Positions 5,831 to 44,442 of a stretch of 64,000 nt of DNA are shown piece after piece; position 1 is the first letter of the stretch, and each line of letters opens with the position of its first letter. A program made the position numbers and the translations under genes. Where the stretch lies: the IMG/VR virus record IMGVR_UViG_3300025133_000069, positions 1-64,000 of that record; one strand, written 5' to 3'. The notes under the pieces were generated by a model, which had not been told where the DNA came from, ran no database searches, and saw only the letters and a program-made list of their open reading frames with translations. This DNA comes from a virus.

Positions 5831-6616
5831 ATGCAGTTTATAACAAAGTCCAAACTCAAACAAATAATACAAGAAGAGCTATCTGCAACGCTATTTGGCC
5901 AATGGACTTCGGGCGGTTTGCAAGCTGCTATAGATCGTGGAGATAAACCACGAAGACCGAACGATATTAGTGATTATATGTGGGAAGAAAGCATTAGTCG
6001 ATGTCTGAATGGTGAAAGTGAATATTGCCCTATGAACCATGGTGTTATAAGAAGGTCAGAAGTACCAGCTGAAAGAAGGCCTAGGCGCGGTATTGAACCC
6101 ACACCGAAACCTAAAAGACGTGTGTACACAGAAGATGACGAAGTATACCCAGATATTACAGATCATATACTAGGAAATATTTGGTTTCACGCTACTAGAA
6201 GACACCAGGGATATCCGTTGGTGCGCCAGTTGTCACCCGACGGTTACGTGGCGTACGCGCCGCTATGGCGCCGGCGCCCGTCGAAGTTTACGCGGTGGGT
6301 TGAGCGCATGGTGAGGGCCGATCTGGGGCATCCGGACCTTCTGGAGATCTTCGGTACTGATATCGGATCCGGATCCGGCGAGGGCGCGTCGGAAACTGGT
6401 AATGATCGGCAAAAACTGGCCTATTATTTAATTATATGGAATAAGCTAGCATGGTGGGCGCGCAGAAATGGTTATAGGCGATTAATAAAATATCCGTCGT
6501 GGGAAGCACGGTTCGCCCGGGAGCTTAAACATCATTATCGTGCCGGCTCCGAGGAGACAAAAGCATGGGAGAAAGCAACCAAACGTGGATCTTGGCGCCC
6601 AAAAACTAATTACTAG
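5831..6616 (+). CDS. Leader-A cargo protein, function unknown
   Basis: Starts MQFITKSKLKQIIQEEL; Cys module RCLNGESEYCP shared with the 8016 ORF. Confidence 0.8.
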   Translation: MQFITKSKLKQIIQEELSATLFGQWTSGGLQAAIDRGDKPRRPNDISDYMWEESISRCLNGESEYCPMNHGVIRRSEVPAERRPRRGIEPTPKPKRRVYTEDDEVYPDITDHILGNIWFHATRRHQGYPLVRQLSPDGYVAYAPLWRRRPSKFTRWVERMVRADLGHPDLLEIFGTDIGSGSGEGASETGNDRQKLAYYLIIWNKLAWWARRNGYRRLIKYPSWEARFARELKHHYRAGSEETKAWEKATKRGSWRPKTNY

Positions 6617-6617
6617 C

Positions 6618-7832
6618 ATGAAACTCATACTTGAAAACTGGCGATCATATTTAAACGAACTTGAGACCGATACCGGAGAGGCTAGCGTTGGCTTGGAAAA
6701 GAAGTCAATGTATGAGAAAGACAGAGAAGTACATAAAGTTAAAGTTGAACGAGAAATACGCAAAGCAAAAAAGAAATATTCTCATTCTTTGTCTGTTGGC
6801 CGATCTTATAAAAAGATTATAGAATTTTTGGTTCGAACCACAAAATTGAGCAAACAAGAAGCAAAGTTCCACTATTTGGGATCTATTTTGCCGGCCCTGC
6901 TGCACGAAATAAAAAATGTTAAATACGATTTTGAACAGCTCCCTGGAAAAACGACATATGGCGCGTTTACAGTAGAAGGTGGAGCACGTATAATAATTGA
7001 TGTAAGGTTTACTGATCCTTGGCATGAAGACTGGAAACGGTGGGCGCCTAGGTCGAGGGCGACAGAAAAGCCAACTCTAGAGAATACTTACCCTTCGAAG
7101 GGCGTACCATGGCCAATGGGTGTTTCCGCGGATACGCCGGCGGTGGAGGAGTGGCCACTTAAAATGGGAGGCAATCTGGTATTAACGACTTTTATTCATG
7201 AGCTTGGGCACTTTATTGATTACCTCTGGACCACGGAAAAGATTAAATATCCTGGTAAAGCTTGTGATGCGTTGCCCTATTTTGATATGCATTCAGATAA
7301 AGAATGGAAAATGCAGCATTGCACGCCGGCTGAATTACAAAGAAAAGATTTGGGGAGGCTTTATAAGGATTTTCTGGAACTTACGTACGGCGAAAGGAAA
7401 ACAGGTAAACTAACAAGAACAAAAGCAGAATATAAATCTGATCTGCACGAAGCTGCCGCACATGTAAGAGAAATTTTTATTACTTTGGACCGCGATGTCA
7501 CACTTAAAGAATTAAAGCTTGTGTGTGAATTTAAAGAGTGGACTAGGCAGGCCGATGCCGAGGGTCAAGCGGCAGGCCGGCCGGTCATCGATTGGGAGAA
7601 AATATCAAAAACATGGCAGCTTAGGGGGCGGGGCTATGGGGGCGCGCCGCGGACAAAGACCAGCAGGATGGGCACGCCATTGTTCCGCGCTGGCTGGGAC
7701 TATTCTCTATTATTTAAAAATCAGTTTATTCAACAACTCAACTGTAAGCGCTTAACGAAAGAACGAGTCGACGCGTTGAATCGAGTAACAAAAGTCGATC
7801 CTTCTAAGTTGCCTGGTAGGGAATACGCATAA
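6618..7832 (+). CDS. Leader-B cargo protein with zincin HExxH metallopeptidase motif
   Basis: True start ATG 6618 MKLILENWRSYLNE; TFIHELGH and downstream HEAAA; ACTAATTA box at 6605. Confidence 0.75.
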   Translation: MKLILENWRSYLNELETDTGEASVGLEKKSMYEKDREVHKVKVEREIRKAKKKYSHSLSVGRSYKKIIEFLVRTTKLSKQEAKFHYLGSILPALLHEIKNVKYDFEQLPGKTTYGAFTVEGGARIIIDVRFTDPWHEDWKRWAPRSRATEKPTLENTYPSKGVPWPMGVSADTPAVEEWPLKMGGNLVLTTFIHELGHFIDYLWTTEKIKYPGKACDALPYFDMHSDKEWKMQHCTPAELQRKDLGRLYKDFLELTYGERKTGKLTRTKAEYKSDLHEAAAHVREIFITLDRDVTLKELKLVCEFKEWTRQADAEGQAAGRPVIDWEKISKTWQLRGRGYGGAPRTKTSRMGTPLFRAGWDYSLLFKNQFIQQLNCKRLTKERVDALNRVTKVDPSKLPGREYA

Positions 7833-7835
7833 TTT

Positions 7836-7934: not shown

Positions 7935-8015
7935 ACTATAAAAAGCATCTCATATAAAAAAATACCCAGTAATATTTTAAAAACTAATTAATATTGCAAA
8001 CTCGGGATCTTTATT

Positions 8016-9788
8016 ATGAAAATTACCAAGCCTCTTATACGACTAATCGAAGAAGAGCTAGCAGCTGTTTTGGAAGAGCAAATAACTGATCCGGACGCAC
8101 CACTCATGACCGTCCCTGATGCTGCAGCTGGTCCGGACGAATATTCGCATGAACTTCCTGATCCTGTGGAACATCGGCCGGGCGATGAGGTTGATTTGTA
8201 TGTATATGCTGGTGAGCAGGACGGAGAGGAGGACGTTGCAACCAAAGAAGCCGTGAGGTGGCTTAGGGAGGAAGGGTACCCTTTCTGGTATTATGACGTC
8301 ATGGGAGGACCTTCTGATCAGCCCGCCATGGCTTTTCAAGGGGAGCGCTATAATCAAGAAGAGTATGAAGCAAGTGAATATTATTCACCTTGGGAGGATG
8401 AAGGAGACTTGGTGGATAGTCTAAGGAATCCCGCGGCGGTGGCGCGAGATGATGCAATGCGAGCTTTTTCGGAATTGAAAACTCATATAGGCATATGCAA
8501 TAGATATCCTGTTAACACGGTACCAGGCTGTGCATATGCCGATCCGATAGGAGCGGGATGGCCAGTCTTTTTATTTACTAAAAAAGGCGCATCTAAAATA
8601 TCTCGCCCTCCTGAGTTTCGTCGAGGTTGGAGTGAGGAAGTGAAAGGCTGGTTGCAAGGTATGTTTGGTTCGGGGTATATAAAAAGGAAAAAATTACCGC
8701 GACATCCCCGGAGATCGAGGCCACCAACGCGCTGGCCTGAGCATATTCTTGAGCCATTACTGAAGACACATGGTGGAAAACAGGAAAAAATTACTGAAAC
8801 AACTCTCAAACAATTAATTAAAGAAATACTTGATGATGCATTCAATCCTGAATATTCAGGTTTGAATTTATATACCCCCGAAGAAATTTTGCGAGATGAC
8901 CCTATGGCACCGCCTGGTTTTGATCCTGAAGTTTGGGAAACAGCCAAGAGAAGATGCGTGGATGGTGAAACATGGTATTGCCCGCATAAAAGAAGCGGCT
9001 CACGTCGTGGGGTCCGTTGGGAAGAAGAGCCTCGTCGATCCAGGCGTGGTATAGAATATCCTGTCCCTCGTCCTCCTGTTCCCGTGCAATGGTACCCTAA
9101 AGTAGGGGCGCTTGCAAAAGTTATGGCGAAGATCGAGTGGTGTGATCAGATCTACGATCGGCATGGGGTTCCGGCGCGTGGCGAGCGAGGGTCGCCGGCA
9201 TATAGGCGAGAGCAACGTAAATGTGATAAAAGTGCACTGGCAGCTGCTGTGGGTTCAGATTTTATTCCTATCTTTAAAAAAGGAAGGGAAGGAAGCTATA
9301 ACTTGGAAGCTTGGACGTCAATTTCACCTCATCCCGGAATGACTTATGATTGGGGTGGGTCTCCGGTGGAGAAAGGAACGCCGGGGGAGCGATGGGCGGA
9401 AGCTTCGGAATTTGATGATTGGGGTTGGCACGGCGCCGAAACGTTAAGTTTGGCCAGGGAGATATTGCAATATCGACATGGAATCGATCGCGAAGCGGAG
9501 TGGGATGACCCGCGGCAATATGCCATGTCACCTGAAGAAAGACAATTAAAATTTAAAAAAGGCCGCCATCCAATGAGCAAGAAGCTGGCGCCTTGGTTGT
9601 ATGATGTGGATAATGTACCTGATCATGAAGTGGTTGGTCGGCACATGGCAAGATATCCACACTATGCTGAATATCTGTTGGAGTATTATTTGGATCTCGT
9701 GCGTTATCAAGGTGGCGATGCAAATAAAAAGCCACCAGGGATCTCAAGCAGAAAATGGAATAAGCTTAAACCATCAATCCCAGAATGA
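8016..9788 (+). CDS. Leader-A cargo protein, apparent fusion of two cassettes; N-half possibly glutaredoxin-like without CxxC
   Basis: MKITKPLIRLIEEEL; internal second leader KITETTLKQLIKEIL at ~8787; ACTAATTA at 7983. Confidence 0.75.
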   Translation: MKITKPLIRLIEEELAAVLEEQITDPDAPLMTVPDAAAGPDEYSHELPDPVEHRPGDEVDLYVYAGEQDGEEDVATKEAVRWLREEGYPFWYYDVMGGPSDQPAMAFQGERYNQEEYEASEYYSPWEDEGDLVDSLRNPAAVARDDAMRAFSELKTHIGICNRYPVNTVPGCAYADPIGAGWPVFLFTKKGASKISRPPEFRRGWSEEVKGWLQGMFGSGYIKRKKLPRHPRRSRPPTRWPEHILEPLLKTHGGKQEKITETTLKQLIKEILDDAFNPEYSGLNLYTPEEILRDDPMAPPGFDPEVWETAKRRCVDGETWYCPHKRSGSRRGVRWEEEPRRSRRGIEYPVPRPPVPVQWYPKVGALAKVMAKIEWCDQIYDRHGVPARGERGSPAYRREQRKCDKSALAAAVGSDFIPIFKKGREGSYNLEAWTSISPHPGMTYDWGGSPVEKGTPGERWAEASEFDDWGWHGAETLSLAREILQYRHGIDREAEWDDPRQYAMSPEERQLKFKKGRHPMSKKLAPWLYDVDNVPDHEVVGRHMARYPHYAEYLLEYYLDLVRYQGGDANKKPPGISSRKWNKLKPSIPE

Positions 9789-9831: not shown

Positions 9832-11067
9832 ATGAAAATTACCGAAAAAGTTCTTAAGCAATTGATCAAAGAAGAGTTAGCTAAAATATTTGAAGGAGAC
9901 GACGGAGACGTCATTAAGGGCCCATGGGGCGACAAACCCCCCGGAAGTACTGAAGATTGGCTCGACCAGTGGGATGACTCTCTTGATAAGCTGGACACTG
10001 AAAAACAGCGGATGTTCGATCAGTGGCAGAAAGATCCAAATTCAGTACCGGAGAAATGGCGTAAGTTCTTTGAGCCGAATGTGACACAGTTGCCCGGGCG
10101 TGAGCGTATTGCAATACAGCCCCCGGAATCGGGCGCCCCAGGACGAGTAGTTCAGGGCCCATGGGGAGATATTCCAGCTCTTGAACCGCAGAGAGGCAGA
10201 CCGGTCTCTGATTACATGGAAGTTGCTAAAATATTCAAAGGAGATCCTGATGCTATAAAAGATCTTCCGGTTCCACCTGGGCAGCCAAAATTAAATGTGA
10301 ATTCAACAACAGAAGAAATTGCAGCTGCCTTAAAATACGATGAGGACCTTTACTGGAGCGCTAAAGACGCGCCGACGAAGAAGAAGAGTGGTCGTGGTAC
10401 CGCTGCAAGCTTGCATGGAAAAGCAGGGGATCCCATGAACCCCGACGCTCGACGCGAAACTCTTAGAAATGTAAGAGCAATGGAACAGCGTACGCCAGAA
10501 TTAAAAGGTAAGATATTAGAACATCCAAATGTAAAAGATAGAGTGAGAGCTTCTGTAAAGAAAAAAATAGCTGCCGGCGCTTTTATTGGTATTCTTGTAT
10601 GGCAATTGCTGGAAGGCTTGGCCAACGCAACGGAAACACATGGCCATTTATTAGATGAAGAAGGAAATATTAACGAAGATAGTGTTAAAGCCCATGGGAT
10701 AGAACTGGGAAAATTTGGGATTAGCGCGGTGGATCCAACTGGTATAGCAGACGTCGGCTTCGGCATACACGAGATTCTTAGCGCCGATGATCCAAAGTAT
10801 ATGAGTGAGGTACATGGTCAGGCCATGGCTGAGATGTTTGGTATTCCTACTCCATCGGATGCAGGACCAGAAGGAATAAAACCGGGAAGTGCTACTGCGC
10901 CGGGCGAGGTTATTGCGACGGTCGCTCCAGATTGGCTAGAAATATGGAATCCAGTTGGTGAAGAAGAGGGTTTCACGATGGAATGGGAACCGGGGCCCGA
11001 AGATCCGCGTATGCAAGTCCGCGAATCTAAAAAGAACACCAGAAAAATTAAAATATTAATTAAATAA
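9832..11067 (+). CDS. Leader-A cargo protein with hydrophobic segment and basic C-terminal tail
   Basis: Start ATG 9832 MKITEKVLKQLIKEEL; AAGAFIGILVWQLL; ends VRESKKNTRKIKILIK. Confidence 0.8.
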   Translation: MKITEKVLKQLIKEELAKIFEGDDGDVIKGPWGDKPPGSTEDWLDQWDDSLDKLDTEKQRMFDQWQKDPNSVPEKWRKFFEPNVTQLPGRERIAIQPPESGAPGRVVQGPWGDIPALEPQRGRPVSDYMEVAKIFKGDPDAIKDLPVPPGQPKLNVNSTTEEIAAALKYDEDLYWSAKDAPTKKKSGRGTAASLHGKAGDPMNPDARRETLRNVRAMEQRTPELKGKILEHPNVKDRVRASVKKKIAAGAFIGILVWQLLEGLANATETHGHLLDEEGNINEDSVKAHGIELGKFGISAVDPTGIADVGFGIHEILSADDPKYMSEVHGQAMAEMFGIPTPSDAGPEGIKPGSATAPGEVIATVAPDWLEIWNPVGEEEGFTMEWEPGPEDPRMQVRESKKNTRKIKILIK

Positions 11068-11109: not shown

Positions 11110-13011
11110 ATGCAAAAACTTTTCGAAAATTGGCGTAACTTTGAAAAATTAATTTTATCCGAAGCTCGGGATCCTTTTGGTATTACTGTAGCTAATGAAA
11201 TTACTAAGCATGTACTGGCATTTCTCAAGACTCGTAGCGATGAGTTTTGGGAGAACACCCGACCAGGCGTGGCTCCGCCAGAGCCGGAGGATGCAAGAAG
11301 ATTTCCTTATCCTGTCACTACAACAGTTGAAAGACAACAGGGCCCGCTATTACCTCAACTGACAGATTACAAAAGAATAATAGTAATACCAAAAAATGTT
11401 TTTATTCGGAAATTTAAAGCAAAAAAACTTCCTTCTTCACCTGGGCCAGGAACAATGCAAGCGGCGGGAATTCACGATGTTCGTAATTTGAAAGATGCCT
11501 TTGCGAAGTTTCCTGATTTAGAAAATGTTATTGTAAAAATTGATTTCGTATCAGATAGAATGATGAGCAAGGTCATCAAGGCCGAGGGCGAAGCGGGCGC
11601 ATTACTACCAACGAGACATAGTAAGTTTTTTATGGACGGCGCGGCAGGGAGTAGGTCAGCAAAAGCAGCTTGGAATCCGGAGCATCCTTATTCTCCGAGC
11701 CATCCGCCGCATGGAGGCTCTGGAGATTTAACACTGGAAATCACTCTCTCTGACGACTTTTTCCGTGCAGAATCGAAAGAGTTATTTTTAATTGATTTAA
11801 TAAAACCGTTGCGCGCAGGTCTAATATTCACGACCACTCATGAGTTAGAACACTTTCAACAAGGTTTGCCTCATCCTCTTCGCGGAAAGACTAGTAGACA
11901 TCCTGCTGGACATCTTGAAAAATTTGAAGAGCCTTATAGTCCTGAAGTTGCTGACCGAGGGCGCCCGGGCCCGGGAGAGTCGCCAGCGGCCCCTCCGGGA
12001 AGTGCATGGCGAATATTTGTGTATGAATTATTACCAGATGAATTTGAAGCCAATATAAAAGGGTTGATAAACACAGCTAGAAAAACTGGGTATCCCCTAA
12101 TAAGCAATTACGAAACTGTGTATGGCGCGGCCTCGCAGGTCGACCTCCGCGTCGCCGGCGGCTTTCATCTGGAGACGGGAAGAGGTTTATTTGAACTTTG
12201 GCTTAAGCAGAGAATTAATTCGTATTATCGACTACTTCGACAGACGGGGACAGCAGTCTTGACCGTTGAGAATCATACAAAAATAATTATGGAGAAAGGT
12301 CGTGAACTATTAATAAAATATGCCAAACAAAATCTTCCAAAAATTCATGCTGCTATAATGTCGCAGGTGGAAAAAATTGCAAAGAATAGACAGTTATTGG
12401 CGGATCCCCGAATGCGATTGGAAATTGAGGATGCCGTGGGTCGTCCCACTCCTAAAGGTGAGGCTGTCTTAAAAAGCAAAAAGTCATTTTCTACAAGTCT
12501 TCGAGGCGCGCCCCTTATGGCACTAGACTTATCTTTGAGATTAGAATTTGCAGGCCCAGAAGTAGAAGAGAAGGCCATGGCCGTCTTTGAATGGGGTCGA
12601 GATACCGCTATATGGACAGCTATCGGGGCTGCATCGACCGCTGTCGTTGGTGCTGCATCTCCTGGTGTATTAGCTGGTATGATTATTTCTTGTATGGTTG
12701 ATCCGACATGTCACCCACCAAAATCGCGAAAGGAAGCGCATAGAGAAAAAATAAAAACATCAGAAGCTGGTATCGATGCTGCAATTGATATGTGTAGAAA
12801 ATCTGGAATGGTGCCTGATCCTTTAAATCCCCGGGGCTTAAAATATCGTTCGGGCAAACCTATAGGTGGTGTAGAGTGTGTGACACCCGAAGAAGCTGAA
12901 GAAAGAAAGAAAGAATTACCTTGCTGGGAGCGTCCAGAAGGTTGTAGTCATTTGGAATCTGTTAGAGAAAATAAATCAGTTCATAAAATCAAAATTAAAT
13001 TGTTAAAATAA
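11110..13011 (+). CDS. Leader-B cargo protein: HExxH metallopeptidase plus C-terminal hydrophobic region
   Basis: MQKLFENWRNFEKLILSE; TTHELEHFQQ...PDEFEAN; TAIWTAIGAASTAVVGAASPGVLAGMII; ends VRENKSVHKIKIKLLK. Confidence 0.8.
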   Translation: MQKLFENWRNFEKLILSEARDPFGITVANEITKHVLAFLKTRSDEFWENTRPGVAPPEPEDARRFPYPVTTTVERQQGPLLPQLTDYKRIIVIPKNVFIRKFKAKKLPSSPGPGTMQAAGIHDVRNLKDAFAKFPDLENVIVKIDFVSDRMMSKVIKAEGEAGALLPTRHSKFFMDGAAGSRSAKAAWNPEHPYSPSHPPHGGSGDLTLEITLSDDFFRAESKELFLIDLIKPLRAGLIFTTTHELEHFQQGLPHPLRGKTSRHPAGHLEKFEEPYSPEVADRGRPGPGESPAAPPGSAWRIFVYELLPDEFEANIKGLINTARKTGYPLISNYETVYGAASQVDLRVAGGFHLETGRGLFELWLKQRINSYYRLLRQTGTAVLTVENHTKIIMEKGRELLIKYAKQNLPKIHAAIMSQVEKIAKNRQLLADPRMRLEIEDAVGRPTPKGEAVLKSKKSFSTSLRGAPLMALDLSLRLEFAGPEVEEKAMAVFEWGRDTAIWTAIGAASTAVVGAASPGVLAGMIISCMVDPTCHPPKSRKEAHREKIKTSEAGIDAAIDMCRKSGMVPDPLNPRGLKYRSGKPIGGVECVTPEEAEERKKELPCWERPEGCSHLESVRENKSVHKIKIKLLK

Positions 13012-13084: not shown

Positions 13085-13552
13085 ATGAAAATTACAAAAA
13101 GACAACTTCAACGAATTATTAAAGAAGAACTTGAAAAAGTTTTGAAAGAAGCCGAAAAAGGTTGGGCCGGCGGAATAGGTGATATTATCCGTCGTGGTCT
13201 CGAAGAACTTATAAAAATAGCACAAGGATTGACTCAGGCACTTAAAGCAGCATGTGCACAAAAAGATTTAATTTTAATGGCGGTTAACAATCCAAAGATG
13301 ATTAAATTAATTGTTAGTACTGCTAACCCAGCAGAGGCCGCGGCTGCAATTACTCTAGCTGCACAGGAGGCCGGCATTCCCGTACCGGGAGACGCGACGA
13401 AGGCTTTGACTATGGTGATTACAGAAATGAAGAAAGATACATTTTTCTGGGATCAGCTTGTAAAAGCCATGAAAGATGAAAGTGTACGTAAAACAGTAGT
13501 GGCCACTATTTCAGCAGCGTGCCCGAAACCAACGACGGAGCCGGTACCATAA
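13085..13552 (+). CDS. Leader-A cargo protein, helical
   Basis: MKITKRQLQRIIKEELEKVLKE; ACTATTTA at 13048. Confidence 0.8.
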   Translation: MKITKRQLQRIIKEELEKVLKEAEKGWAGGIGDIIRRGLEELIKIAQGLTQALKAACAQKDLILMAVNNPKMIKLIVSTANPAEAAAAITLAAQEAGIPVPGDATKALTMVITEMKKDTFFWDQLVKAMKDESVRKTVVATISAACPKPTTEPVP

Positions 13553-13580: not shown

Positions 13581-13856
13581 ATGAAAGTTACCAAAAATTA
13601 CCTTAGACGATTAATTGAACAAGAATTAAGAAATATACATGAAGATGATGATGATCCTCTCTCTGCTGAGCCTGGTGGTCTCGGTGGTCTCGGTGGTGAG
13701 AAACCTTCATTACCGCCTGATGCTGGTGGGGTGGCTGAGCCAGAAACAGCAGAAGCAATGTTAGAGAAGGTTCATGCAGATCTTGAAAGGTGGTTGGGAG
13801 GCCATGGCGGCGATGTTTCACCAAGTACAGATGTAGAAGACGAAGACGAATTTTAA
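13581..13856 (+). CDS. Leader-A small acidic protein
   Basis: MKVTKNYLRRLIEQEL; AAGGAG RBS. Confidence 0.8.
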   Translation: MKVTKNYLRRLIEQELRNIHEDDDDPLSAEPGGLGGLGGEKPSLPPDAGGVAEPETAEAMLEKVHADLERWLGGHGGDVSPSTDVEDEDEF

Positions 13857-14232: not shown

Positions 14233-14994
14233 ATGAAATTATTATTCGAAAGCTGGCGTCAATTTATATCTGAAGAAGAATCACCGCGAATTATCGCTAT
14301 TGGTGACAGTATTACAGCGATGAAAGGATCTTATATTGATCTCTTGGGCGGCGAGAAGTTTGCTAAAGGAGGACAGACAAGCAGACAGCGTATACTTTTT
14401 AATAAAGTTAAAGATGCTACAGCTGGAAGGTCTGATTATCCAGATTATATAATTCTTTTTATGGGTACTAATAATATTGGTGCTGGCGATAGACGTTATG
14501 GTGCTAGATTCGCCAAGCCAGAAGACGAGAATCCAAAATTCGTTAGTGAGTTAATAGCTGATTTAGGGAAATATTATGGTTGGGCCAAAACTGGCTGTGC
14601 GTTTGAAGGGAAGACGTCAAGAGAAACGAAATGTATTCCACAAGACCATTCAGCTACAGTTATTGTATTGCCATTGTTTCCTGCTTATGATTATTGGTTT
14701 AAACGATATAATACGTTGAACGAGAAGAAGAAGATAAGGTATGCTGGTTGGGAACCTAATTTAATGATGAAAAATTTAAATAAAGTTAATCAAGCGATCG
14801 CTGAAATATCAGATATACCTATAAGCAATGAATCAATGTTAGAAGTTGCTGTTAACTGGAAGGATGACGGAAGTGGTTTGGTAGGAAAAAACATCCAAGA
14901 ACAATACAGAGGAAGAAAAGGCAATGATTATATTCATCCCAACAAAGCAGGTCATGCAGCATTAAAAGCCCTAATTAAAGAGAGGCTGTTTTAA
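14233..14994 (+). CDS. Leader-B cargo protein: SGNH/GDSL esterase
   Basis: MKLLFESWRQFISEE; AIGDSIT, MGTNN, DYIHPNKAGH; ACTAATTA at 14208. Confidence 0.85.
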   Translation: MKLLFESWRQFISEEESPRIIAIGDSITAMKGSYIDLLGGEKFAKGGQTSRQRILFNKVKDATAGRSDYPDYIILFMGTNNIGAGDRRYGARFAKPEDENPKFVSELIADLGKYYGWAKTGCAFEGKTSRETKCIPQDHSATVIVLPLFPAYDYWFKRYNTLNEKKKIRYAGWEPNLMMKNLNKVNQAIAEISDIPISNESMLEVAVNWKDDGSGLVGKNIQEQYRGRKGNDYIHPNKAGHAALKALIKERLF

Positions 14995-37157: not shown

Positions 37158-38043
37158 ATTACGAAGATTAATTCGTGGTGCAATTAAAATCCGAGAACGA
37201 AAATTAAAAACGCAAGATCTCAATAAATTAGAAGATGAACAGAAGCTTCGTAAAATAGTACGTTATTTTCTAAAAGAAGCAAAAGATGTTGATGCGTCAA
37301 CAAATCCTGTTGGTTATGGTTCAACAGCTTTAAACGCGGTAGCAACTGCTTTTAACGATATTCTTAAAACTGTCAAAGAGGGATTTCGCTTTTTGGAAGA
37401 GCCAGAAGAAAGAGAATCTTTTAGAATCCATACTTTAGAAAAAATGAAAAGTATTCTTGATCACCTAGAAGCATTAGATTTTCAAGGCGCCGAAGCAGCG
37501 GAAGGGGGAGTTGTAGGTGAAGATAGCATTGCTGAGCAAGAAAGAGATGAAGAAAAAATAGAAATTGATATTGAGAAAGTTGATGATCCGGATGCGAGAA
37601 TAATTCCAGATTTTGAGAAAGAAAGGTATACTCCAGATGAAGAAACAGATGAAGAAACAGAAAAAAAAGAATTTGGAGAGTTTTCTATTTCTGAGTTGGA
37701 CGTAACTGGAGCGAGAAAAGCTTTTGAGATGTTTAATAATTCAAATATACAAGATACCATTACTAAAAATAGAAAAACTATTGAAGATAAGCCGGGCGCA
37801 GCAAAAGAATATAGAGAGTTTGTTTTATATAATATAGATTTGTGGTTATTGACTTATGAAGAAGAATATGCCAAGGAACTTGGGCAAGAACCAGCGTTCA
37901 CAGAGACAATTATGGACAGGCCAGAATCTGCTGTTGAAATAGGTAAAGGTAGACAATACGGCCCTCCAGGAGCTGGAGAGGTAGCAGCTGGCATGGAAGA
38001 ACCTACTGAGGCAGAGGAAGGTTTGCCTCCGTTAGGGATGTAA
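37126..38043 (+). CDS. Acidic helical protein with leader-like N-terminus (scaffold/core-like)
   Basis: GGAGGA RBS at ~37113; KLRRLIR...KLRKIVRYFLKE; very Glu-rich. Confidence 0.7.
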   Translation: MTKKELMQEFKLRRLIRGAIKIRERKLKTQDLNKLEDEQKLRKIVRYFLKEAKDVDASTNPVGYGSTALNAVATAFNDILKTVKEGFRFLEEPEERESFRIHTLEKMKSILDHLEALDFQGAEAAEGGVVGEDSIAEQERDEEKIEIDIEKVDDPDARIIPDFEKERYTPDEETDEETEKKEFGEFSISELDVTGARKAFEMFNNSNIQDTITKNRKTIEDKPGAAKEYREFVLYNIDLWLLTYEEEYAKELGQEPAFTETIMDRPESAVEIGKGRQYGPPGAGEVAAGMEEPTEAEEGLPPLGM

Positions 38044-38876: not shown

Positions 38877-39575
38877 ATGAAAATAACAAAATCACAATTA
38901 AAACAAATTATTAAAGAAGAACTGAAAAGTGTTTTAAGTGAACAATTGCCACGTCGCTCGGCTGAGCGCCGGCGACAAGACCGCGAGAAGTTTAAAAAGT
39001 GTCTTAAGACTTTCAATCCTGAAAAAGAAGGTACTAATTTTTCGTATGAAAATATAGCTTTAAATCTTAAAATGGCTTTAATCCTTAATGATCTTAGAAC
39101 ATCGACGAACAGCGGAAAATCTCTCAAAAAATGGAAAATTGATCCGTTAATAAGTTTAAATCCCGGGCATGTTGAAGAAATTAAAGAACGTTATATAGAA
39201 ATGCGTTGTCAGGATCCTGATCAGAGTCCTGCTAGAGTTCGAAGAAGGGCTGGTGCAATTGGTGGCGATAGTAGCTTTTTTAGGGACCAGAGCAGTGGCC
39301 TGGGTGCTGGCGTGCGGCGATTTCATAAGGGCCCGCTGTCGCGCGGGTCCATAACTAATATTTTTGATGGTTTTGGGGATCCCGGCGGATATTCGCCTTT
39401 GAGAGATGAGCTTAACGATCTTCTAGAAAAAACAGGTGCATGGAAAAAAATGCGCATGGATGACCCTGTACGTAAACAATATAAAAATTGGATTCAAACA
39501 AGATTAGGGCGATGTGAAAAGGGGGGTGGAAAAACCCTCCCAGATGGTAGTTGTTCGAAAGATGTAGTGCATTAA
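38877..39575 (+). CDS. Leader-A cargo protein
   Basis: True start ATG 38877 MKITKSQLKQIIKEELKSVLSE; ACTAATTA at 38846, GAGGGG RBS. Confidence 0.8.
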   Translation: MKITKSQLKQIIKEELKSVLSEQLPRRSAERRRQDREKFKKCLKTFNPEKEGTNFSYENIALNLKMALILNDLRTSTNSGKSLKKWKIDPLISLNPGHVEEIKERYIEMRCQDPDQSPARVRRRAGAIGGDSSFFRDQSSGLGAGVRRFHKGPLSRGSITNIFDGFGDPGGYSPLRDELNDLLEKTGAWKKMRMDDPVRKQYKNWIQTRLGRCEKGGGKTLPDGSCSKDVVH

Positions 39576-39591: not shown

Positions 39592-39954
39592 ATGAAAATC
39601 ACAAAATCACAATTAAAACAAATTATTAAAGAAGAGCTGGAAAGTGTTAAGATACACGAGCGGAAGGCGAAAGCAGGAGAGGAATACGGTGACTTCGTCG
39701 TCGTCAAAACAGTCGACGGGGGTACAGCCGCGGTCCGCAAGGATGTTTATAAATATTTTGGCCCTATTTCTACTATACTTCCGACTGACACGCTTATGAA
39801 TGCTTTAGAACAGGCTATGAAAAAAAATAATATTCCTTTAGATATCGTCGGTTCCGGGGTTGGTAGAATAGGTGCGGACTCGGGCGGCAGATTCACGTTT
39901 AAATTTAGTGTAGATCTCGAACCTGCCAAACTGCCGGCCCCAGAAGAAAAATAA
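39592..39954 (+). CDS. Leader-A cargo protein
   Basis: MKITKSQLKQIIKEELESVKIHE; GGAGGT RBS. Confidence 0.8.
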   Translation: MKITKSQLKQIIKEELESVKIHERKAKAGEEYGDFVVVKTVDGGTAAVRKDVYKYFGPISTILPTDTLMNALEQAMKKNNIPLDIVGSGVGRIGADSGGRFTFKFSVDLEPAKLPAPEEK

Positions 39955-39973: not shown

Positions 39974-40228
39974 ATGAAAATCACAAAATCACAATTAAAA
40001 CAAATTATTAAAGAAGAGATGGAAAGTGTCTTAAAAGAACAAGAGGTGCTGCGAGGGGCGAGAATAACGAAGAAGAAACAAGACGGGGACTATTGGATTG
40101 TAACTGTGTGTCTAAGAGACACTTGTGCAGAAGGAAAAGCAAAAGGAGCTACTACCAGCATCGCGATCCGCGCGGCCGAGCAGAAGGCCCGGACTAATTT
40201 GTTAAAGAAACTAAAGGGAAATGACTAA
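39974..40228 (+). CDS. Leader-A small basic cargo protein
   Basis: MKITKSQLKQIIKEEMESVLKE. Confidence 0.8.
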   Translation: MKITKSQLKQIIKEEMESVLKEQEVLRGARITKKKQDGDYWIVTVCLRDTCAEGKAKGATTSIAIRAAEQKARTNLLKKLKGND

Positions 40229-40593: not shown

Positions 40594-41649
40594 ATGCAGA
40601 AACTATTTGAAAATTGGCGGAGATTCGTAGAAGAAGACAATAAAGCTTTAGAATCTAAAATACGCGCGGCATTAGCTGAAGAAGGCGGCGCTGCTGATAT
40701 GGAAACATTGAAAGAGTATACTGGAGCGACCGAGGAAGAAATCAAATCTGCCATGGGGGATTGGGAGGGCATAGAAGAGCATCCGGGATCGTCTGACTTT
40801 AGAAAAAATATTTTATTAGAAGGCCAACGCGAAAATCTTCCAGAATGGTTTAAAGAGTGGCTTGGGGATTTTCTAGAAAAAGATTTAGATGCACCTGGCG
40901 CGAAAGAATATTTTCGTAATAGGTCGGCACCTATGCCGCCGGCGACGGATCTTGAAGGATATCGTGGAAGAGGAGGAGGCTTCCCCGCGCGATGGGACCG
41001 ACCGCCGATTCCGCCGATCCACGCGAGTAGCACGGGCCGGCAGGCGCCGCATTTGGATCTGCAGGGCCGGCCAAAGGCGCCGGGCGAGCAGAGGTGGCGG
41101 CGATGGGCTGACCGAGCGCTCGGGCTTCCACCTCATCCTGAACCTGTCGCCGGTGCTGGCCATCGCGCAGTGCCTGCTAGCCGGCGAGAGCTTCGATCTG
41201 CGCACAACAAGAACAAAAGTAGATTAGTAAATGATATTAGAAGAGAAGCCACGATTATAGAAAAAGCTGTTCCAAGACGTCCCGGGGCCTTTAAACAATT
41301 TTTGCAAAAAGCTAGGAATATTCCATTTTTAGGTAATTTTTTCAAACTTGCACTTCTTGGGTATGTAGGTACTGATATTCTAACTAGAGCTGATAATGCG
41401 TATGCTAGCCAGGGAGTAATAGGAGTATCTAAAACTATAGCAGAAGAAAGTCTTTTATTTTTACCTAGCTATATAGAAATAAGCTTAATAGCTTCTGCGT
41501 TGGAAGAGGCATTCCCAGATATTGTGTTCCCAGGAAAATGGAAACGTGATAAATATTGGAAGTCTTCAAAATATGATGTTGAAGATTATCCCGGTGGATC
41601 AGAAGAAGAAACACCTGAAGAAGACGTGGGGCCTCTACCAGATGTATAA
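40594..41649 (+). CDS. Leader-B cargo protein with C-terminal hydrophobic segments
   Basis: MQKLFENWRRFVEE; NIPFLGNFFKLALLGYVG; ACTATTTA at 40581, directly after the tmRNA CCA. Confidence 0.8.
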   Translation: MQKLFENWRRFVEEDNKALESKIRAALAEEGGAADMETLKEYTGATEEEIKSAMGDWEGIEEHPGSSDFRKNILLEGQRENLPEWFKEWLGDFLEKDLDAPGAKEYFRNRSAPMPPATDLEGYRGRGGGFPARWDRPPIPPIHASSTGRQAPHLDLQGRPKAPGEQRWRRWADRALGLPPHPEPVAGAGHRAVPASRRELRSAHNKNKSRLVNDIRREATIIEKAVPRRPGAFKQFLQKARNIPFLGNFFKLALLGYVGTDILTRADNAYASQGVIGVSKTIAEESLLFLPSYIEISLIASALEEAFPDIVFPGKWKRDKYWKSSKYDVEDYPGGSEEETPEEDVGPLPDV

Positions 41650-41834: not shown

Positions 41835-42152
41835 ATGAAGAATTTATTCGAAAATTGGCAAAATTATTTACAAGAAGATAGTGAAGAAAAAACGGATAAA
41901 CCAAAAGTAGTATGTAACTGTCTTTGTACTGATTGTATTTTTAATAAAAGTGAACAATGTATAACTGAAGAAATTAATCTAGATTTTGCACAAACGAAAC
42001 AAGGTAAATGGATATGTGAATGTTTGACTTATGAGGTTGATGAAGGAAAAGAAAAAGGCCCAGAAGATTCTACTGTGCGTGGAAGAGAAGAAGTAGATGA
42101 ATCTGCTTGGTCAGGTTCTGGACCGTTAAAAGAACCAATTGAAGAAATGTGA
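41835..42152 (+). CDS. Leader-B small Cys-rich (metal-binding) protein
   Basis: MKNLFENWQNYLQE; VVCNCLCTDCIFN...C...CECLTY (DUF1540-like spacing). Confidence 0.75.
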   Translation: MKNLFENWQNYLQEDSEEKTDKPKVVCNCLCTDCIFNKSEQCITEEINLDFAQTKQGKWICECLTYEVDEGKEKGPEDSTVRGREEVDESAWSGSGPLKEPIEEM

Positions 42153-42186
42153 CCAGACAATGATTCCTAGTTAAGGATATTTATTA

Positions 42187-44442
42187 ATGAAAGAAATATA
42201 TGAAAATTGGAGATTGTTTACTGAAGCAGCAGATCCTTTAAGTGACGCCGAAATTGTTAAAGCGTTTCAAAAACTAGATATTGTTGCTGATATAGATCTG
42301 CCATCGGCCGATGCGCCGGAAGAGGTCTGGGGGAGATACGGGCGCTCGGGGACCCCGGAAGCTCGCGAAGAACTTTCCCGTGTTGCCCGACGTTTTTTAG
42401 ATCAAGGAACACCAAAAATAAGAATTCTTGAACTAGCACATCGCAGTGGACTTCGTCGATGGTTATTAAAAGATCTTGCAACGGAACTTGGTGTGCCACT
42501 GGAGGCGCTTCAGACTCGTCAGTTTGCCGACGACAAGGTGATGCCCAAGAGCAAGCGCGCAAAAAGACGGCGAAGGAAGGGCCTGTCAAAAAAGGAGATG
42601 TTGCGTCTTCCTGATATAGAGGATCCTTTTTTTGATATACCAGAAGCAGAGAGAGAATACTTAGAAGTATTACATGGGGCGCCAGGTGAAGCGCCCGATG
42701 GATGGATTCGAGCGGGAAGTCCTTCACATATGACACAGGATCCTGGTCGGTTTTTGGAAACGATACGAAGGGATGTAGCAGATCTTTCTGGCGGTAGCAA
42801 TCTTTTTAATCCCGATGAAGATTACCTTTATTATAATTATAAGACTAAAAAGATTGCCATTGCTAAAGCACATCCAGAAGTTAGAGGAATAATTGTGCTA
42901 CCAGATAATATAAGATGGGATTATAATACTGGAAGATGGTCTGGTACTGTCAGTATAGAGACGTTAACAGATTGGGTGCCTGAATATATACCAAAAGAAC
43001 ACAATCCTCTTTGGACAGGCGCAGTTGATACGCGTATCAATATGCCTGAAGTTCATGAACCTAGGCCAGGTTGGGGACGTGGTCCGGAGCTGGATCACCT
43101 GGATGATCCTGGGTCGAAAAGATGGACAGAAGTCAAAGAGAGATATGTCCCTAAAGATTATGAAGTCGGAGATAGTTATGAGACGGAGGCTCAAAGAAAT
43201 GAACGTCTTATCAGAAATGAAGAACTAGGTCCAGAGCATGCAAGACTTGCACAAGACGAGCGCGCACGTGCCGAACTGCTGGCGGAGCAATCTCTAGATG
43301 ATTCCAGGCTTCGAGCCAGTTTAGATAAAAAAGAAAAAAAACTTTTTAATAAAAGCTTCAAGAAGTTTGTTAAAAAAACCAAAGATGTCGGTCAAGCTGA
43401 GAGCATGGCCCTCCAGGCTATTCGTACAAGAAGAAAGCTAATAGCTGATTTAGAAAAGATGCCATTTCTTCCAAAGAGTATGAAAACGTTGATCTCGATG
43501 GGCAAACGAACACTCCTGATTTTAGCAATTATACTCACGCTCTCAGGGGTCTGGATAGCTATAGATTGGAAGAGTTTCATGAAGTACGGTCCGCCGGGGT
43601 GGATTGCGTTTCTACTTGGAGCCGTATGGGAAGCGATAGTTGGCATAGAATGGAGCACGTGGGTACAATCAAATGGTGTTAAACCACCTGAAACTCTTGA
43701 AGAAATGAAAGCAATGTTAGATCGCGAATTGCATCCAGATCAAAAAGCAGAACTTAGAGATATAGCACTAGCAGGTATAGGCACTAGTCTCACAGTAGGT
43801 TTAGTTGATCTTGCTGATGTAACCGCTACCATACAAGTAGAAGAAGCGCTTAAGGATTTTCGATTCAAATGGTCTCTATGGAATGCACAGATTGGTAGAG
43901 AAAACAAAAAATTCATGATCCTCGATCCGAAAGATTATCATCGCAGCGAGGTGATCGCTTCTCCAACCGCTAAAGATCCACGTGGTTTTACAACACCTGA
44001 TAAAACAACAGAACTTAAATTACAATGTGCAGAACATCAAAGATTTAAAATTAGAACTTTACCTAGAGTCAAAGATATGGTACGTCTTGGAATTGTCCCT
44101 ACTCCAGAACTGATCGATCTGGCTAGTAAGGTTGGTTATCGTTATGAAGGTAGCAACGCTGATGGTTCTCCAGCTTGGAGAGGTATACCTCCGGATAGCC
44201 CGGGCGCTAAATCCTGCAAAGAATTAGCAAAGAGAGGTATACCGGTGCCTGTACCAGGTAAATGGATGGGGCCTGAAGATCCGATAAGATCTACACCTGG
44301 ACCTAGGCCAGAAGACACACGATTGCATGAAAACATTAAACATAAAGTAATTAAATTAAAAATTTTAAAAGAACGTAAAGTAGCTGAACATAAAGTAATT
44401 AAATTGAAAATTATAAAAGAACGTAAGAAATATAAGAAATAA
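42187..44442 (+). CDS. Leader-B cargo protein with TM hairpin and duplicated basic tail
   Basis: MKEIYENWRLFTEA; LLILAIILTLSGVWIAI and GWIAFLLGAVWEAIVGI; HKVIKLKI(L/I)KERK twice. Confidence 0.8.
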   Translation: MKEIYENWRLFTEAADPLSDAEIVKAFQKLDIVADIDLPSADAPEEVWGRYGRSGTPEAREELSRVARRFLDQGTPKIRILELAHRSGLRRWLLKDLATELGVPLEALQTRQFADDKVMPKSKRAKRRRRKGLSKKEMLRLPDIEDPFFDIPEAEREYLEVLHGAPGEAPDGWIRAGSPSHMTQDPGRFLETIRRDVADLSGGSNLFNPDEDYLYYNYKTKKIAIAKAHPEVRGIIVLPDNIRWDYNTGRWSGTVSIETLTDWVPEYIPKEHNPLWTGAVDTRINMPEVHEPRPGWGRGPELDHLDDPGSKRWTEVKERYVPKDYEVGDSYETEAQRNERLIRNEELGPEHARLAQDERARAELLAEQSLDDSRLRASLDKKEKKLFNKSFKKFVKKTKDVGQAESMALQAIRTRRKLIADLEKMPFLPKSMKTLISMGKRTLLILAIILTLSGVWIAIDWKSFMKYGPPGWIAFLLGAVWEAIVGIEWSTWVQSNGVKPPETLEEMKAMLDRELHPDQKAELRDIALAGIGTSLTVGLVDLADVTATIQVEEALKDFRFKWSLWNAQIGRENKKFMILDPKDYHRSEVIASPTAKDPRGFTTPDKTTELKLQCAEHQRFKIRTLPRVKDMVRLGIVPTPELIDLASKVGYRYEGSNADGSPAWRGIPPDSPGAKSCKELAKRGIPVPVPGKWMGPEDPIRSTPGPRPEDTRLHENIKHKVIKLKILKERKVAEHKVIKLKIIKERKKYKK
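44341..44426 (+). repeat. 48-nt-period duplication encoding HKVIKLKI(L/I)KERK twice
   Basis: cataaagtaattaaatt(a/g)aaaatt(t/a)taaaagaacgtaa at 44341 and 44389. Confidence 0.9.

What the first reader, a model, noticed from the sequence alone, without database searches (positions are those of the whole stretch)
5831..44442. Leader-tagged cargo arsenal: about 17 unrelated proteins share one of two short N-terminal address tags
Seen in sequence: Leader A (MKITKSQLKQIIKEELxxVLxE-like) starts the ORFs at 5831, 8016, 9832, 13085, 13581, 15002 (twice), 38877, 39592 and 39974, with variants at 28136 and 37126. Leader B (MxxL(F/Y)ENWRxFxxE) starts 6618, 11110, 14233, 25370, 40594, 41835 and 42187. Right after the leader the proteins diverge completely (84 to 2095 aa): HExxH peptidases, SGNH esterases, a muramidase, a Cys-rich protein and membrane-segment proteins. 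The leaders usually end in hydrophobic-x-E (FLTE/A, ILSE/A, LFTE/A, VLKE/A, VLSE/Q). Established: T4 internal proteins carry a ~10-aa capsid-targeting sequence ending in Glu that the gp21 prohead protease removes, and they are injected with the DNA. Inference: this is a greatly expanded, modular head-packaging and injection system in which grafting a tag onto any domain makes it a virion-delivered effector. Two tag classes may mean two docking partners. This is my best candidate for the undescribed system.
Basis: partly seen in the sequence, partly recalled or inferred. Interest (0 to 1): 0.93.

Follow-up and report, generated by a model that had tools for sequence, protein, structure and literature searches.

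The report
Shared capsid-loading tags on phage proteins
Sixteen otherwise unrelated genes of an uncultured marine T4-like phage begin with one of two short conserved peptides that look like longer versions of the tag phage T4 uses to load proteins into its head, so they are probably virion-packaged, protease-trimmed cargo, although nobody has shown packaging or cutting.

Summary
Sixteen + strand ORFs (9 leader A, 7 leader B; 21.8 kb, 29% of the 76-kb contig) start with MKITKSQLKQIIKEEL... or MxxLFENWRxF(L/I)xE. HMMs trained without the window recover 13 of them. The two "variants" (28136, 37126) are not members.

The contig is about 42% of a roughly 180-kb uncultured Far-T4-like marine phage. 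It holds no prohead protease. A complete syntenic relative has one (Pfam PF03420/S77, the phage T4 gp21 family), with gp22-like scaffold and gp23-like capsid genes. So do all 11 near-complete leader-bearing contigs.

- Leader B conservation stops at [LIV]12-x-E14, the gp21 cutting rule.
- Homologous cargo carries A or B, with homology starting right after L-x-E.
- Close relatives hold different tagged genes in the same islands.
- A strand-specific promoter-like box links tagged genes with the scaffold gene.
- Selection is on the protein, and both leaders are almost absent from cellular genomes.
- Leader A heads or punctuates at least 11,436 protein clusters.

Best reading (about 0.6): clade-specific capsid-targeting propeptides, analogous to the T4 CTS/internal-protein system. 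Packaging, cleavage and ejection are inferred. I found no paper describing these leaders. Earlier unchecked notes of this scan report comparable leaders on other T4-like phage DNA.

The parts
5831..6616 (+). Leader A cargo ORF, 261 aa, basic (pI 9.8). The leader is shifted by one residue (MQFITKSKLKQIIQEEL). ACTATTTA box 4 nt upstream of the ATG.
   Evidence: independent HMM 33 bits.
6618..7832 (+). Leader B cargo ORF, 404 aa, HELGH motif at residue 194. No Pfam or PDB relative.
   Evidence: HMM 24.5 bits. Atlas neighbours are viral hypothetical proteins, a lead only.
8016..9788 (+). Diverged leader A cargo ORF, 590 aa (MKITKPLIRLIEEEL, one-residue deletion). It has an internal leader-like stretch at nt 8787 (KITETTLKQLIKEIL).
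   Evidence: (0.1 bits at the start, 7.2 bits internal).
9832..11067 (+). Leader A cargo ORF, 411 aa, one TM-like segment.
   Evidence: HMM 28 bits.
11110..13011 (+). Leader B cargo ORF, 633 aa, HELEH motif, one TM-like segment. ACTATTTA box 4 nt upstream of the ATG. The leader continues to ...KLILSE/A.
   Evidence: HMM 16.6 bits.
13085..13552 (+). Leader A cargo ORF, 155 aa; leader ends VLKE/A.
   Evidence: HMM 37.7 bits.
13581..13856 (+). Leader A cargo ORF, 91 aa, acidic.
   Evidence: HMM 22.5 bits.
14233..14994 (+). Leader B fused to a GDSL/SGNH esterase, 253 aa. The domain starts at residue 20.
   Evidence: Pfam PF00657 at 34.2 bits, cut-off 23.6; HMM 29.5 bits.
15002..21289 (+). Cargo candidate of 2095 aa with two tandem diverged leader A copies (residues 4-25 and 34-55). 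[LIVMF]-x-E sites are somewhat enriched (67 against 50 +/- 6 in shuffles).
   Evidence: (5.2 bits each). No Pfam or PDB relative.
25370..27541 (+). Leader B cargo ORF, 723 aa (MKSYHDNWRNFLTE/A). Weak muramidase and SGNH-like hits. ACTATTTA box 19 nt upstream.
   Evidence: Pfam PF11860 at 21.7 bits, just under the cut-off of 22.3; HMM 10.9 bits.
38877..39575 (+). Leader A cargo ORF, 232 aa. First of three tandem cassettes whose first 57 nt are 91-96% identical.
   Evidence: HMM 42.7 bits.
39592..39954 (+). Leader A cargo ORF, 120 aa; second tandem cassette.
   Evidence: HMM 41.6 bits.
39974..40228 (+). Leader A cargo ORF, 84 aa; third tandem cassette. It ends 4 nt before the tmRNA gene.
   Evidence: HMM 40.2 bits.
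40594..41649 (+). Leader B cargo ORF, 351 aa. ACTATTTA box 5 nt upstream of the ATG.
   Evidence: HMM 26.9 bits.
41835..42152 (+). Leader B cargo ORF, 105 aa, 7 Cys. It has a B-tagged homologue in relative G046 (58% identity).
   Evidence: HMM 28.3 bits.
42187..44442 (+). Diverged leader B cargo ORF, 751 aa (MKEIYENWRLFTE/A), one TM-like segment. It has a distant B-tagged homologue in G046.
   Evidence: HMM 5.6 bits.
28136..30406 (+). Claimed 'variant'; not a member. It has its own tandem N-terminal repeat ((Y/L)(I/L)KENLLAV) but no leader A or B signal.
37126..38043 (+). Claimed 'variant'; not a member. It is a conserved backbone gene with orthologues in G010 (39% identity) and G062 (43% identity).

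Best explanation
The two leaders are clade-specific capsid-targeting propeptides of an uncultured, roughly 180-kb Far-T4-like marine phage lineage.

Proposed mechanism:
- Late in infection the tagged genes are transcribed together with the head genes.
- The amphipathic N-terminal peptide docks the protein onto the scaffolding core of the prohead.
- The gp21-family (S77) prohead protease then cuts after Glu in [L/I/V]-x-E. For leader B this is E14. For leader A it is E14 and, in most copies, a second site around E21-22.
- The mature cargo stays in the head and is likely ejected with the DNA.

Because the tag is a self-contained module, any domain can be recruited, and recombination at the conserved leader and promoter shuffles cassettes between phages.

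Shown here: the leaders, their modularity, the protease-type end, restriction to viruses and T4-type genomes, protein-level selection, and hypervariable islands.

Inferred: late timing, docking, cleavage, packaging and ejection.
For: 1. T4-type head machinery.
- All 11 leader-bearing IMG/VR contigs that are at least 90% complete encode a PF03420/S77 protease, as do 26 of 49 fragments. Every fragment scales to about 180 kb by CheckV.
- The window's syntenic relative G010 shares PhoH at 79% and DnaB and RNR at 77% identity. It has TerL, portal, S77 protease, a gp22-like scaffold and a gp23-like MCP with a conserved ...LL(K/R)E/AS site at residue 59.

2. Protease-type end of the leaders.
- Leader B information content falls to noise right after E14.
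- [LIVMF]12-x-E14 is present in 82% of 204 copies, against 1-6% at neighbouring positions. These positions were not used for ascertainment.
- 81% of leader A copies have a further [LIVMF]-x-E ending at residues 17-30.

3. Modularity.
- Homologous mature domains carry leader A (L264:3411-3638) or leader B (L193:11929-12126) at 56% identity. Homology begins immediately after L-x-E.
- Pfam domains (NUDIX, CTP_transf_like, GDSL) start about 6-9 residues after E14.

4. Hypervariability, as at the T-even internal-protein (IP) loci. Relatives with 80-88% identical PhoH keep the backbone but hold different tagged genes in the same islands.

5. Co-regulation hint.
- ACTA[AT]TTA occurs 18 times on the + strand and 0 times on the - strand.
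- It lies within 60 nt upstream of 9 of 16 tagged starts against 3 of 51 untagged starts (p = 4e-5).
- The same box precedes the scaffold gene and other structural-module ORFs in G010 and G002.

6. Selection on the peptide. All synonymous codons are used at conserved leader residues.

7. Virus-specific distribution. In 596 Gb of cellular genomes there were 10 stretches for A, all on MAG contigs, and 1 for B.

8. Same architecture as the T4 CTS. It starts at Met1 and is 10-19 residues long, with targeting residues upstream and processing residues at P3/P1 (PMC9026906). Leader B has aromatic residues at positions 5 and 8, spaced i and i+3 like T4's targeting residues 4 and 7.
Against: - No experimental datum exists. 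The clade has no cultured member, so there is no virion proteome.
- The window contig itself lacks the protease and head genes (42% complete).
- There is no detectable sequence homology to the T4 CTS, and no leader-like sequence in the scaffold.
- Five cultured T4-like phages with S77 proteases lack both leaders, so the link to the protease is clade-level co-occurrence, not specificity.
- Cargo is on the whole acidic (median pI about 5), unlike the basic T4 IPs.
- Some cargo is very large (2095 aa) or has TM-like segments.
- The 'late promoter' reading of the box is inferred. The box also precedes some non-structural genes.
- Internal leader copies in polyproteins show the peptide is not strictly an N-terminal signal.
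Confidence: 0.6

Rival explanations
1. The leaders are docking helices for a partner other than the prohead core. Candidates are a tail or baseplate compartment, a membrane site or an intracellular enzyme assembly. The hydrophobic-x-Glu end would then be a helix feature rather than a cleavage site.
For: - The leaders are amphipathic (leader B helical moment 0.61).
- Some leader B cargo are cytoplasmic-type enzymes: NUDIX, cytidylyltransferase-like and a protein kinase.
- Cargo is mostly acidic.
- Leader A copies occur internally and repeatedly within single chains, as expected for a multivalent binding motif.
Against: - Conservation stops abruptly at [LIV]-x-E14, and homology between A- and B-tagged relatives starts exactly after L-x-E. 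That is what a removable propeptide predicts.
- The same kind of site is present in the clade's capsid propeptide.
- No candidate partner gene was seen next to the islands.
Confidence: 0.15
2. The leader is a recognition sequence for a modifying or processing enzyme other than the prohead protease, in the manner of a RiPP leader or a degron.
For: One shared short N-terminal sequence on thousands of unrelated proteins is also the pattern of leader-guided maturases.
Against: - No radical-SAM, SPASM or other maturase-like gene turned up among the window ORFs scanned with Pfam or PHROGs, or beside the islands.
- Cargo are full-size folded enzymes up to 2095 aa, not peptides.
- The only invariant co-occurring processing enzyme found was the S77 protease.
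Confidence: 0.08
3. The leaders route envelope-active enzymes (esterase, muramidase, peptidase-like, TM proteins) to the membrane or periplasm at the end of infection. They would be a non-Sec export or lysis-timing signal rather than a virion address.
For: Several window cargo look envelope-directed and lack signal peptides: the GDSL esterase at 14233, the muramidase-like ORF at 25370, and TM-like segments in 9832, 11110 and 42187. A dedicated amidase endolysin at 30410 carries no tag.
Against: - The same leader B heads NUDIX, nucleotidyltransferase and kinase domains in relatives.
- The leaders are hydrophilic and amphipathic, not signal-peptide-like (mean hydrophobicity below 0).
- They are absent from cellular genomes.
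Confidence: 0.07
4. The conserved start is mainly a nucleic-acid-level feature. It would be a recombination handle for cassette exchange or a translation-initiation element for leaderless late mRNAs, with no role for the peptide itself.
For: - Three tandem cassettes share 91-96% identical first 57 nt.
- The promoter-like box sits 4-5 nt from the ATG in four genes, implying leaderless transcripts.
- Islands differ by whole cassettes between relatives.
Against: - Across 238 and 251 distinct DNA copies, every synonymous codon is used at conserved residues. Examples are six Leu codons at A8, six Arg codons at B9, and both TCN and AGY for Ser6.
- DNA identity between most window copies is only 44-81%.
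- Leaders occur behind ordinary Shine-Dalgarno sites as well.
- Recombination at the leader is a likely consequence of the conserved start, not its function.
Confidence: 0.05

Closest known systems
Phage T4 capsid targeting sequence (CTS) on internal proteins IPI, IPII, IPIII and Alt, removed by the gp21 prohead protease (Mullaney and Black 1996; reviewed in PMC3012670, PMC9026906, PMC5694885)
   Same: - A short peptide starting at Met1.
- Shared by otherwise unrelated, fast-evolving proteins.
- Ends in hydrophobic-x-Glu.
- The lineage encodes gp21-, gp22- and gp23-type head genes.
- Tagged genes lie in hypervariable loci.
- The T4 literature already suggests the CTS lets T4-like phages pack varied proteins.
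   Different: - No detectable sequence similarity to MKTYQEFIAE.
- The leaders are longer (14 and 16-22 residues).
- Two sequence classes coexist in one genome.
- There are 15-16 tagged genes per genome rather than 3-4.
- Cargo includes large enzymes and a 2095-aa protein and is mostly acidic.
- Leader A also occurs as an internal repeat in multi-module chains.
- Nothing has been tested experimentally.
Propeptides of ejection and inner-body proteins of giant phages phiKZ, 201phi2-1 and SPN3US (PMC5694885, PMC10052503)
   Same: A gp21-related protease trims N-terminal propeptides from many head-packaged ejection proteins. The paralogues gp53 and gp54 share an identical 15-residue start.
   Different: Those propeptides are mostly longer than 100 residues, with a small residue at P3 (A/S/G-x-E). 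They are not one portable tag shared by unrelated proteins. The genomes here are T4-sized Far-T4-like phages.
Encapsulin cargo-loading peptides
   Same: A short portable peptide addresses diverse enzymes to the lumen of an HK97-fold shell. Grafting the tag is enough for loading.
   Different: They are usually C-terminal and are not removed by a protease. There is no DNA packaging or ejection, and they are cellular rather than viral. This is an analogy of principle only (from my own knowledge).
Polyvalent proteins of phages and conjugative elements (Iyer, Burroughs, Anand, de Souza, Aravind 2017; from my own knowledge)
   Same: Multi-module proteins proposed to travel with the DNA into the host and to be processed into effectors. 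The multi-leader chains (P0002, P0006, P0020) and the 2095-aa ORF resemble this idea. One weak Atlas lead points to LPD1 for ORF 6618.
   Different: No polyvalent-protein signature domain was confirmed here by Pfam. Most tagged genes are single-module.

Membership tests
T4-type CTS / internal-protein system | Short peptide (about 10-20 aa) at the extreme N-terminus, beginning at Met1, shared by otherwise unrelated proteins | tested here: met
   Sixteen window ORFs carry a leader. Conservation is confined to residues 1-14 for B and 1-16(22) for A. The 386 tagged proteins fall into 260 clusters.
T4-type CTS / internal-protein system | The leader ends in the gp21 cleavage motif (L/I)-x-E | tested here: met
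   [LIVMF]12-x-E14 is present in 82% of leader B copies at unascertained positions. Leader A has I12-x-E14, and 81% of copies have a second site. Homology between A- and B-tagged relatives starts right after L-x-E.
T4-type CTS / internal-protein system | The genome encodes a gp21-family (S77) prohead protease, a gp22-type scaffold and a gp23-type capsid protein | tested here: inconclusive
   These genes are absent from the 76-kb contig, which is 42% complete. They are present in the complete syntenic relative G010. The S77 protease is also present in 11 of 11 near-complete leader-bearing contigs.
T4-type CTS / internal-protein system | Sequence homology of the tag to the T4 CTS (MKTYQEFIAE) | tested here: not met
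   There is only a shared pattern: Met-Lys start, aromatic residues spaced i and i+3, then [IL]-x-E. Five cultured T4-like phages have no match to either leader. The T4 CTS sequence is from my own knowledge. T4's own genome was not scanned.
T4-type CTS / internal-protein system | Tagged genes lie in hyperplastic loci that differ between close relatives | tested here: met
   G062, G046 and G063 (PhoH 80-88% identical) keep the flanking genes but hold different tagged genes. The window's cargo has no homologues in G010.
T4-type CTS / internal-protein system | The tag is necessary and sufficient for incorporation into the prohead core; it is cleaved in the head; the cargo is ejected with the DNA | not testable with these tools
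   There is no cultured member and no proteome.
T4-type CTS / internal-protein system | Cargo are small basic DNA-associated proteins (T4 IPI-III) | tested here: not met
   Eleven of the 16 tagged window proteins are basic. Across the family, however, the median pI of mature parts is about 5, and sizes reach 2095 aa.
phiKZ/SPN3US-type head propeptides | Long propeptides (over 100 aa) with an A/S/G-x-E cleavage motif | tested here: not met
   The leaders are 14-22 aa with a hydrophobic P3 residue. The motif definition is from PMC5694885.
Leader-guided maturase (RiPP-like / radical-SAM) tag | A dedicated maturase gene encoded beside the tagged genes | tested here: not met
   No such family appeared in Pfam or PHROGs scans of the tagged ORFs and most of the larger untagged ORFs. 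Not every small ORF was scanned.

The most novel reading that the evidence does not exclude
An entire uncultured marine Far-T4-like phage lineage, possibly infecting marine Bacteroidota, uses a two-tag cargo code. Leader A sits on small proteins and as punctuation in multi-module chains. Leader B sits on enzymes such as NUDIX hydrolases, nucleotidyltransferases, kinases and esterases.

Under this reading more than ten thousand unrelated protein families become virion-delivered effectors. Each tag class would dock to a different prohead core component. Cassettes would be exchanged by recombination at the leader and promoter.

That would make the tags a sequence-only way to find injected effectors and counter-defence proteins in metagenomes, and a portable packaging tag for engineering.
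Probability: 0.3. Interest if true: 0.8.

Novelty: new variant of a known kind. Interest (0 to 1): 0.6.

Why it matters
If the leaders really are capsid addresses, a 14-16-residue motif would mark proteins that a large group of ocean phages inject along with their DNA. Leader A alone heads or punctuates at least 11,436 protein clusters at 50% identity.

Injected proteins act before any phage gene is expressed. They are therefore prime candidates for counter-defence and host-takeover functions, and most of those found here have no known relatives.

The result would also show that T4's three-protein curiosity is, in nature, a general and heavily used loading system. It would supply two new portable tags for packing foreign proteins into phage heads.

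The principle is already known from T4, and nothing here has been measured. This is an extension of a known system, not a new kind of system.

Tried and rejected
- **Close cultured relatives.** megablast of 8 kb found nothing, and tblastn of an 84-aa tagged protein found nothing. PhoH, protease and MCP searches gave only distant hits, the nearest being Flavobacterium phage immuto, Microcystis phage Mel-JY01 and RM378. No virion proteome can therefore be consulted.
- **Leaders in cultured T4-likes.** Five cultured T4-like phages (immuto, Mel-JY01, Melnitz, S-RSM4, Cr30) have no match to relaxed patterns of either leader.
- **Cargo function.** Pfam, PHROGs, PDB sequence search and the ESM Atlas left most tagged proteins unexplained. 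'HExxH peptidase' remains a bare motif.
- **Homologues of the GDSL cargo.** The search for homologous proteins returned one fragment only.
- **Leader-like sequence in the scaffold or core proteins.** None scored at 6 bits or more.
- **Basic charge as a cargo hallmark.** It holds in the window but not in the family.
- **RNA- or DNA-level explanation.** Rejected on codon usage.
- **Maturase-tag explanation.** No candidate gene was found.
- **Literature.** Neither the peptide strings nor a CTS in marine or Far-T4 phages turned up.
- **Not run.** Leader B was not searched against the 1.84-billion-protein library, because only one job was allowed and its scores would be borderline.

Full report
**What is in the window**

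All genes of the 76,429-bp record run on the + strand. The window is the first 64 kb of that record.

Sixteen ORFs start with one of two conserved peptides:
- Leader A (MKITKSQLKQIIKEEL, often followed by xxVLxE) starts the ORFs at 5831, 8016, 9832, 13085, 13581, 15002 (two tandem diverged copies), 38877, 39592 and 39974.
- Leader B (M-K-L-L-F-E-N-W-R-x-F/Y-L/I-x-E) starts the ORFs at 6618, 11110, 14233, 25370, 40594, 41835 and 42187.

Together they cover 21.8 kb, which is 29% of the record.

I trained HMMs on IMG/VR copies only and scanned the six-frame translation. They hit 13 of these starts at 11-43 bits, against noise of at most about 8 bits. Every strong hit sits at an ORF start on the coding strand. 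The copies at 8016, 15002 and 42187 are diverged. The two 'variants' at 28136 and 37126 get no score. 37126 is a conserved backbone gene.

**What kind of phage this is**

The record is an IMG/VR contig that CheckV rates 42% complete. Its genes include:
- an exonuclease, a DnaB-type helicase, a ribonucleotide reductase and a GroES-like gene;
- a PurZ-like gene, PIN-PhoH, glycosyltransferases and a gp55-like late sigma factor;
- giant ORFs at the 3' end, which in relatives G062 and G046 are followed by further large ORFs that look like a tail or baseplate module (my reading, not tested).

It has no prohead protease.

G010 (IMGVR_UViG_3300029319_000004) is a complete 180,711-bp relative with terminal repeats and the same gene order. 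PhoH is 79% identical, and DnaB and RNR are 77% identical. G010 has the following head genes:
- TerL and portal;
- an S77 (gp21-family) protease at 103757-104392;
- a gp22-like scaffold at 113937;
- a gp23-like capsid protein at 115075, whose N-terminal region contains a conserved ...QLLKE/AS at residue 59 (ELLRE/AS in G002). From my own knowledge, this matches the position and type of the T4 gp23 cleavage site.

The nearest cultured capsid proteins are those of Flavobacterium phage immuto, Microcystis phage Mel-JY01 and RM378, all below 50% identity. The lineage is therefore Far-T4-like and uncultured.

**How widespread the leaders are**

- All 11 leader-bearing contigs that are at least 90% complete encode the S77 protease, as do 26 of 49 fragments. 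Every fragment's completeness scales to a genome of about 180 kb.
- Leader A fragments carry the protease more often than their completeness predicts: 19 of 29 against about 11 expected. Leader B fragments do not: 7 of 20 against about 10 expected (my arithmetic).
- In 596 Gb of bacterial and archaeal genomes the same patterns found 10 stretches for A, all on MAG contigs, and 1 for B.
- Five cultured T4-like phages have neither leader.
- A profile of leader A found 11,436 proteins at E <= 0.001 among 1.84 billion cluster representatives.

**Anatomy of the leaders**

I collected 182 distinct A-tagged and 204 distinct B-tagged proteins.
- Leader B is conserved through residue 14 and then drops to background.
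- [LIVMF]12-x-E14 occurs in 82% of B copies, against 1-6% at neighbouring positions. Residues 12-14 were not part of the search pattern.
- Leader A is conserved through L16 and contains I12-x-E14. In 81% of copies it has a second [LIVMF]-x-E ending at residues 17-30, most often at 21-22.
- Every synonymous codon is used at conserved residues, so selection acts on the peptide.
- Leader B is strongly amphipathic as a helix.

**Modularity**

- The mature parts of the 386 tagged proteins form 260 clusters, of which 217 are singletons.
- Homologous mature domains occur behind either leader. L264:3411-3638 (A) and L193:11929-12126 (B) are 56% identical, and the homology starts directly after L-D-E and L-N-E respectively.
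- In relatives leader B heads NUDIX, cytidylyltransferase-like and protein-kinase domains. These domains begin about 6-9 residues after E14 where the whole domain is matched. In the window, the GDSL domain of 14233 starts at residue 20.
- Relatives with 80-88% identical PhoH (G062, G046, G063) keep the flanking backbone genes but fill the same islands with different tagged genes. Only the leaders match.
- G010 has about 15 tagged starts, so the window's 16 is normal for the clade.
- The three tandem cassettes at 38877, 39592 and 39974 share 91-96% DNA identity over their first 57 nt, while other copies share 44-81%. This points to recent duplication or conversion at the leader.
- The best-scoring database proteins contain 2-4 leader A copies in one chain, and some internal copies lack a Met (P0002, P0006, P0020).
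- The window's 15002 (tandem leader) and 8016 (internal leader-like stretch at nt 8787) fit that pattern, as does G010's ORF at 11642.

**Expression hint**

ACTA[AT]TTA occurs 18 times on the + strand and never on the - strand. It lies within 60 nt upstream of 9 of 16 tagged starts but only 3 of 51 others (Fisher p = 4e-5).

ACTATTTA also precedes the gp22-like scaffold gene and other ORFs in the structural part of the genome in G010 and G002. I read it as a probable late promoter, but it also precedes some non-structural genes. In four window genes it ends 4-5 nt before the ATG, which suggests leaderless transcripts.

**Comparison with what is known**

- In T4, 10-19-residue N-terminal CTS peptides target IPI, IPII, IPIII and Alt to the scaffolding core.
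- CTS residues 4 and 7 matter for targeting, and residues 8 and 10 matter for gp21 processing.
- Foreign proteins fused to the CTS are packaged and delivered.
- The IPs of T-even phages are diverse apart from the conserved CTS (PMC9026906, PMC3012670, PMC5694885).

The leaders here have the same architecture and genomic behaviour but no detectable sequence similarity. They are longer, come in two classes, tag many more and larger proteins, and also occur internally.

Full-text searches for the peptide strings and for a CTS in marine or Far-T4 phages found nothing relevant. Earlier notes of this scan describe comparable CTS-like leaders and protease-jointed polyproteins in other uncultured T4-like phages. 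One note gives a case where such a tag was reassigned to a radical-SAM partner. These notes are unchecked leads. I looked for a maturase among the scanned window ORFs and found none.

**Verdict**

The most likely function is capsid targeting followed by S77 cleavage, at a confidence of about 0.6. Every functional step (late timing, docking, cleavage, packaging, ejection) remains inference, because there is no cultured member and the head genes lie off this contig.

This is a new variant of a known kind of system. It is notable for its scale and for marking a very large set of unknown proteins as candidate injected effectors.

Noticed in passing
window 40232-40580; 45261-45336; 46360-46435: A phage-encoded tmRNA (tag ANDNVEFDYALAA) sits inside the second cargo island, between the A-tagged ORF ending at 40228 and the B-tagged ORF at 40594. 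tRNA-Ile(TAT) and tRNA-Lys(CTT) flank the PurZ-like gene.
   Followed up: no
window, e.g. 5819, 11098, 13048, 25343, 31465, 32102, 40581, 41669: A strand-specific ACTA[AT]TTA box occurs 18 times on the + strand and 0 times on the - strand. In four genes it ends 4-5 nt before the ATG, implying leaderless mRNAs. ACTATTTA also precedes the scaffold gene and other structural-module ORFs in G010 and G002, so it is probably this clade's late promoter. It differs from T4's TATAAATA.
   Followed up: partly
window 45353-46369: A 338-aa adenylosuccinate-synthetase-like gene matches the PHROG annotated as the PurZ-type enzyme (E = 1.5e-65). This raises the possibility of a 2-aminoadenine (Z) genome in a T4-like phage. 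It is conserved in G062 and G046.
   Followed up: no
P0002, P0006, P0020 (public proteins); G010 11642-12643: Single chains hold 2-4 leader A copies, each followed by a different module. Some internal copies lack Met, so they are real internal repeats and not missed stop codons.
   Followed up: partly
G000 contig 66558-76427 (begins 2.5 kb beyond the window end): A giant ORF of more than 3290 aa runs off the contig end. Equally large ORFs (3240 and 3199 aa) stand at the same place in G062 and G046, though blastp at E 1e-5 against the ATG-started ORF set linked neither to it. They are followed there by further large ORFs that I read as a tail or baseplate module, which was not tested.
   Followed up: no
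window about 53999-59400: The glycosyltransferase and sugar-modification block between conserved genes is a second hypervariable island. Its content differs completely between the window, G062, G046 and G063.
   Followed up: no
window 5831-21289 and 38877-44442: Most tagged genes are richer in G+C than the conserved backbone: 14 of the 16 have 0.40-0.48, 14233 has 0.37 and 41835 has 0.32, against about 0.32-0.36 for the backbone. The cause could be composition of the encoded proteins or foreign origin; this was not examined.
   Followed up: no
window 27547-28134 and 32131-33069: The window's NUDIX gene and NTP_transf_2-like gene carry no tag. In related contigs NUDIX carries leader B (L159:11721-12239), and the B-tagged L160:3-896 has only a sub-threshold NTP_transf_2 hit (20.0 bits, cut-off 21). 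This suggests tags are gained and lost on the same enzyme families.
   Followed up: partly
window 22346-24241: A 631-aa lipoprotein-like ORF with a MopE-type Cys/Asp metal-binding repeat is conserved at 71% identity in G010. It is backbone rather than cargo.
   Followed up: no
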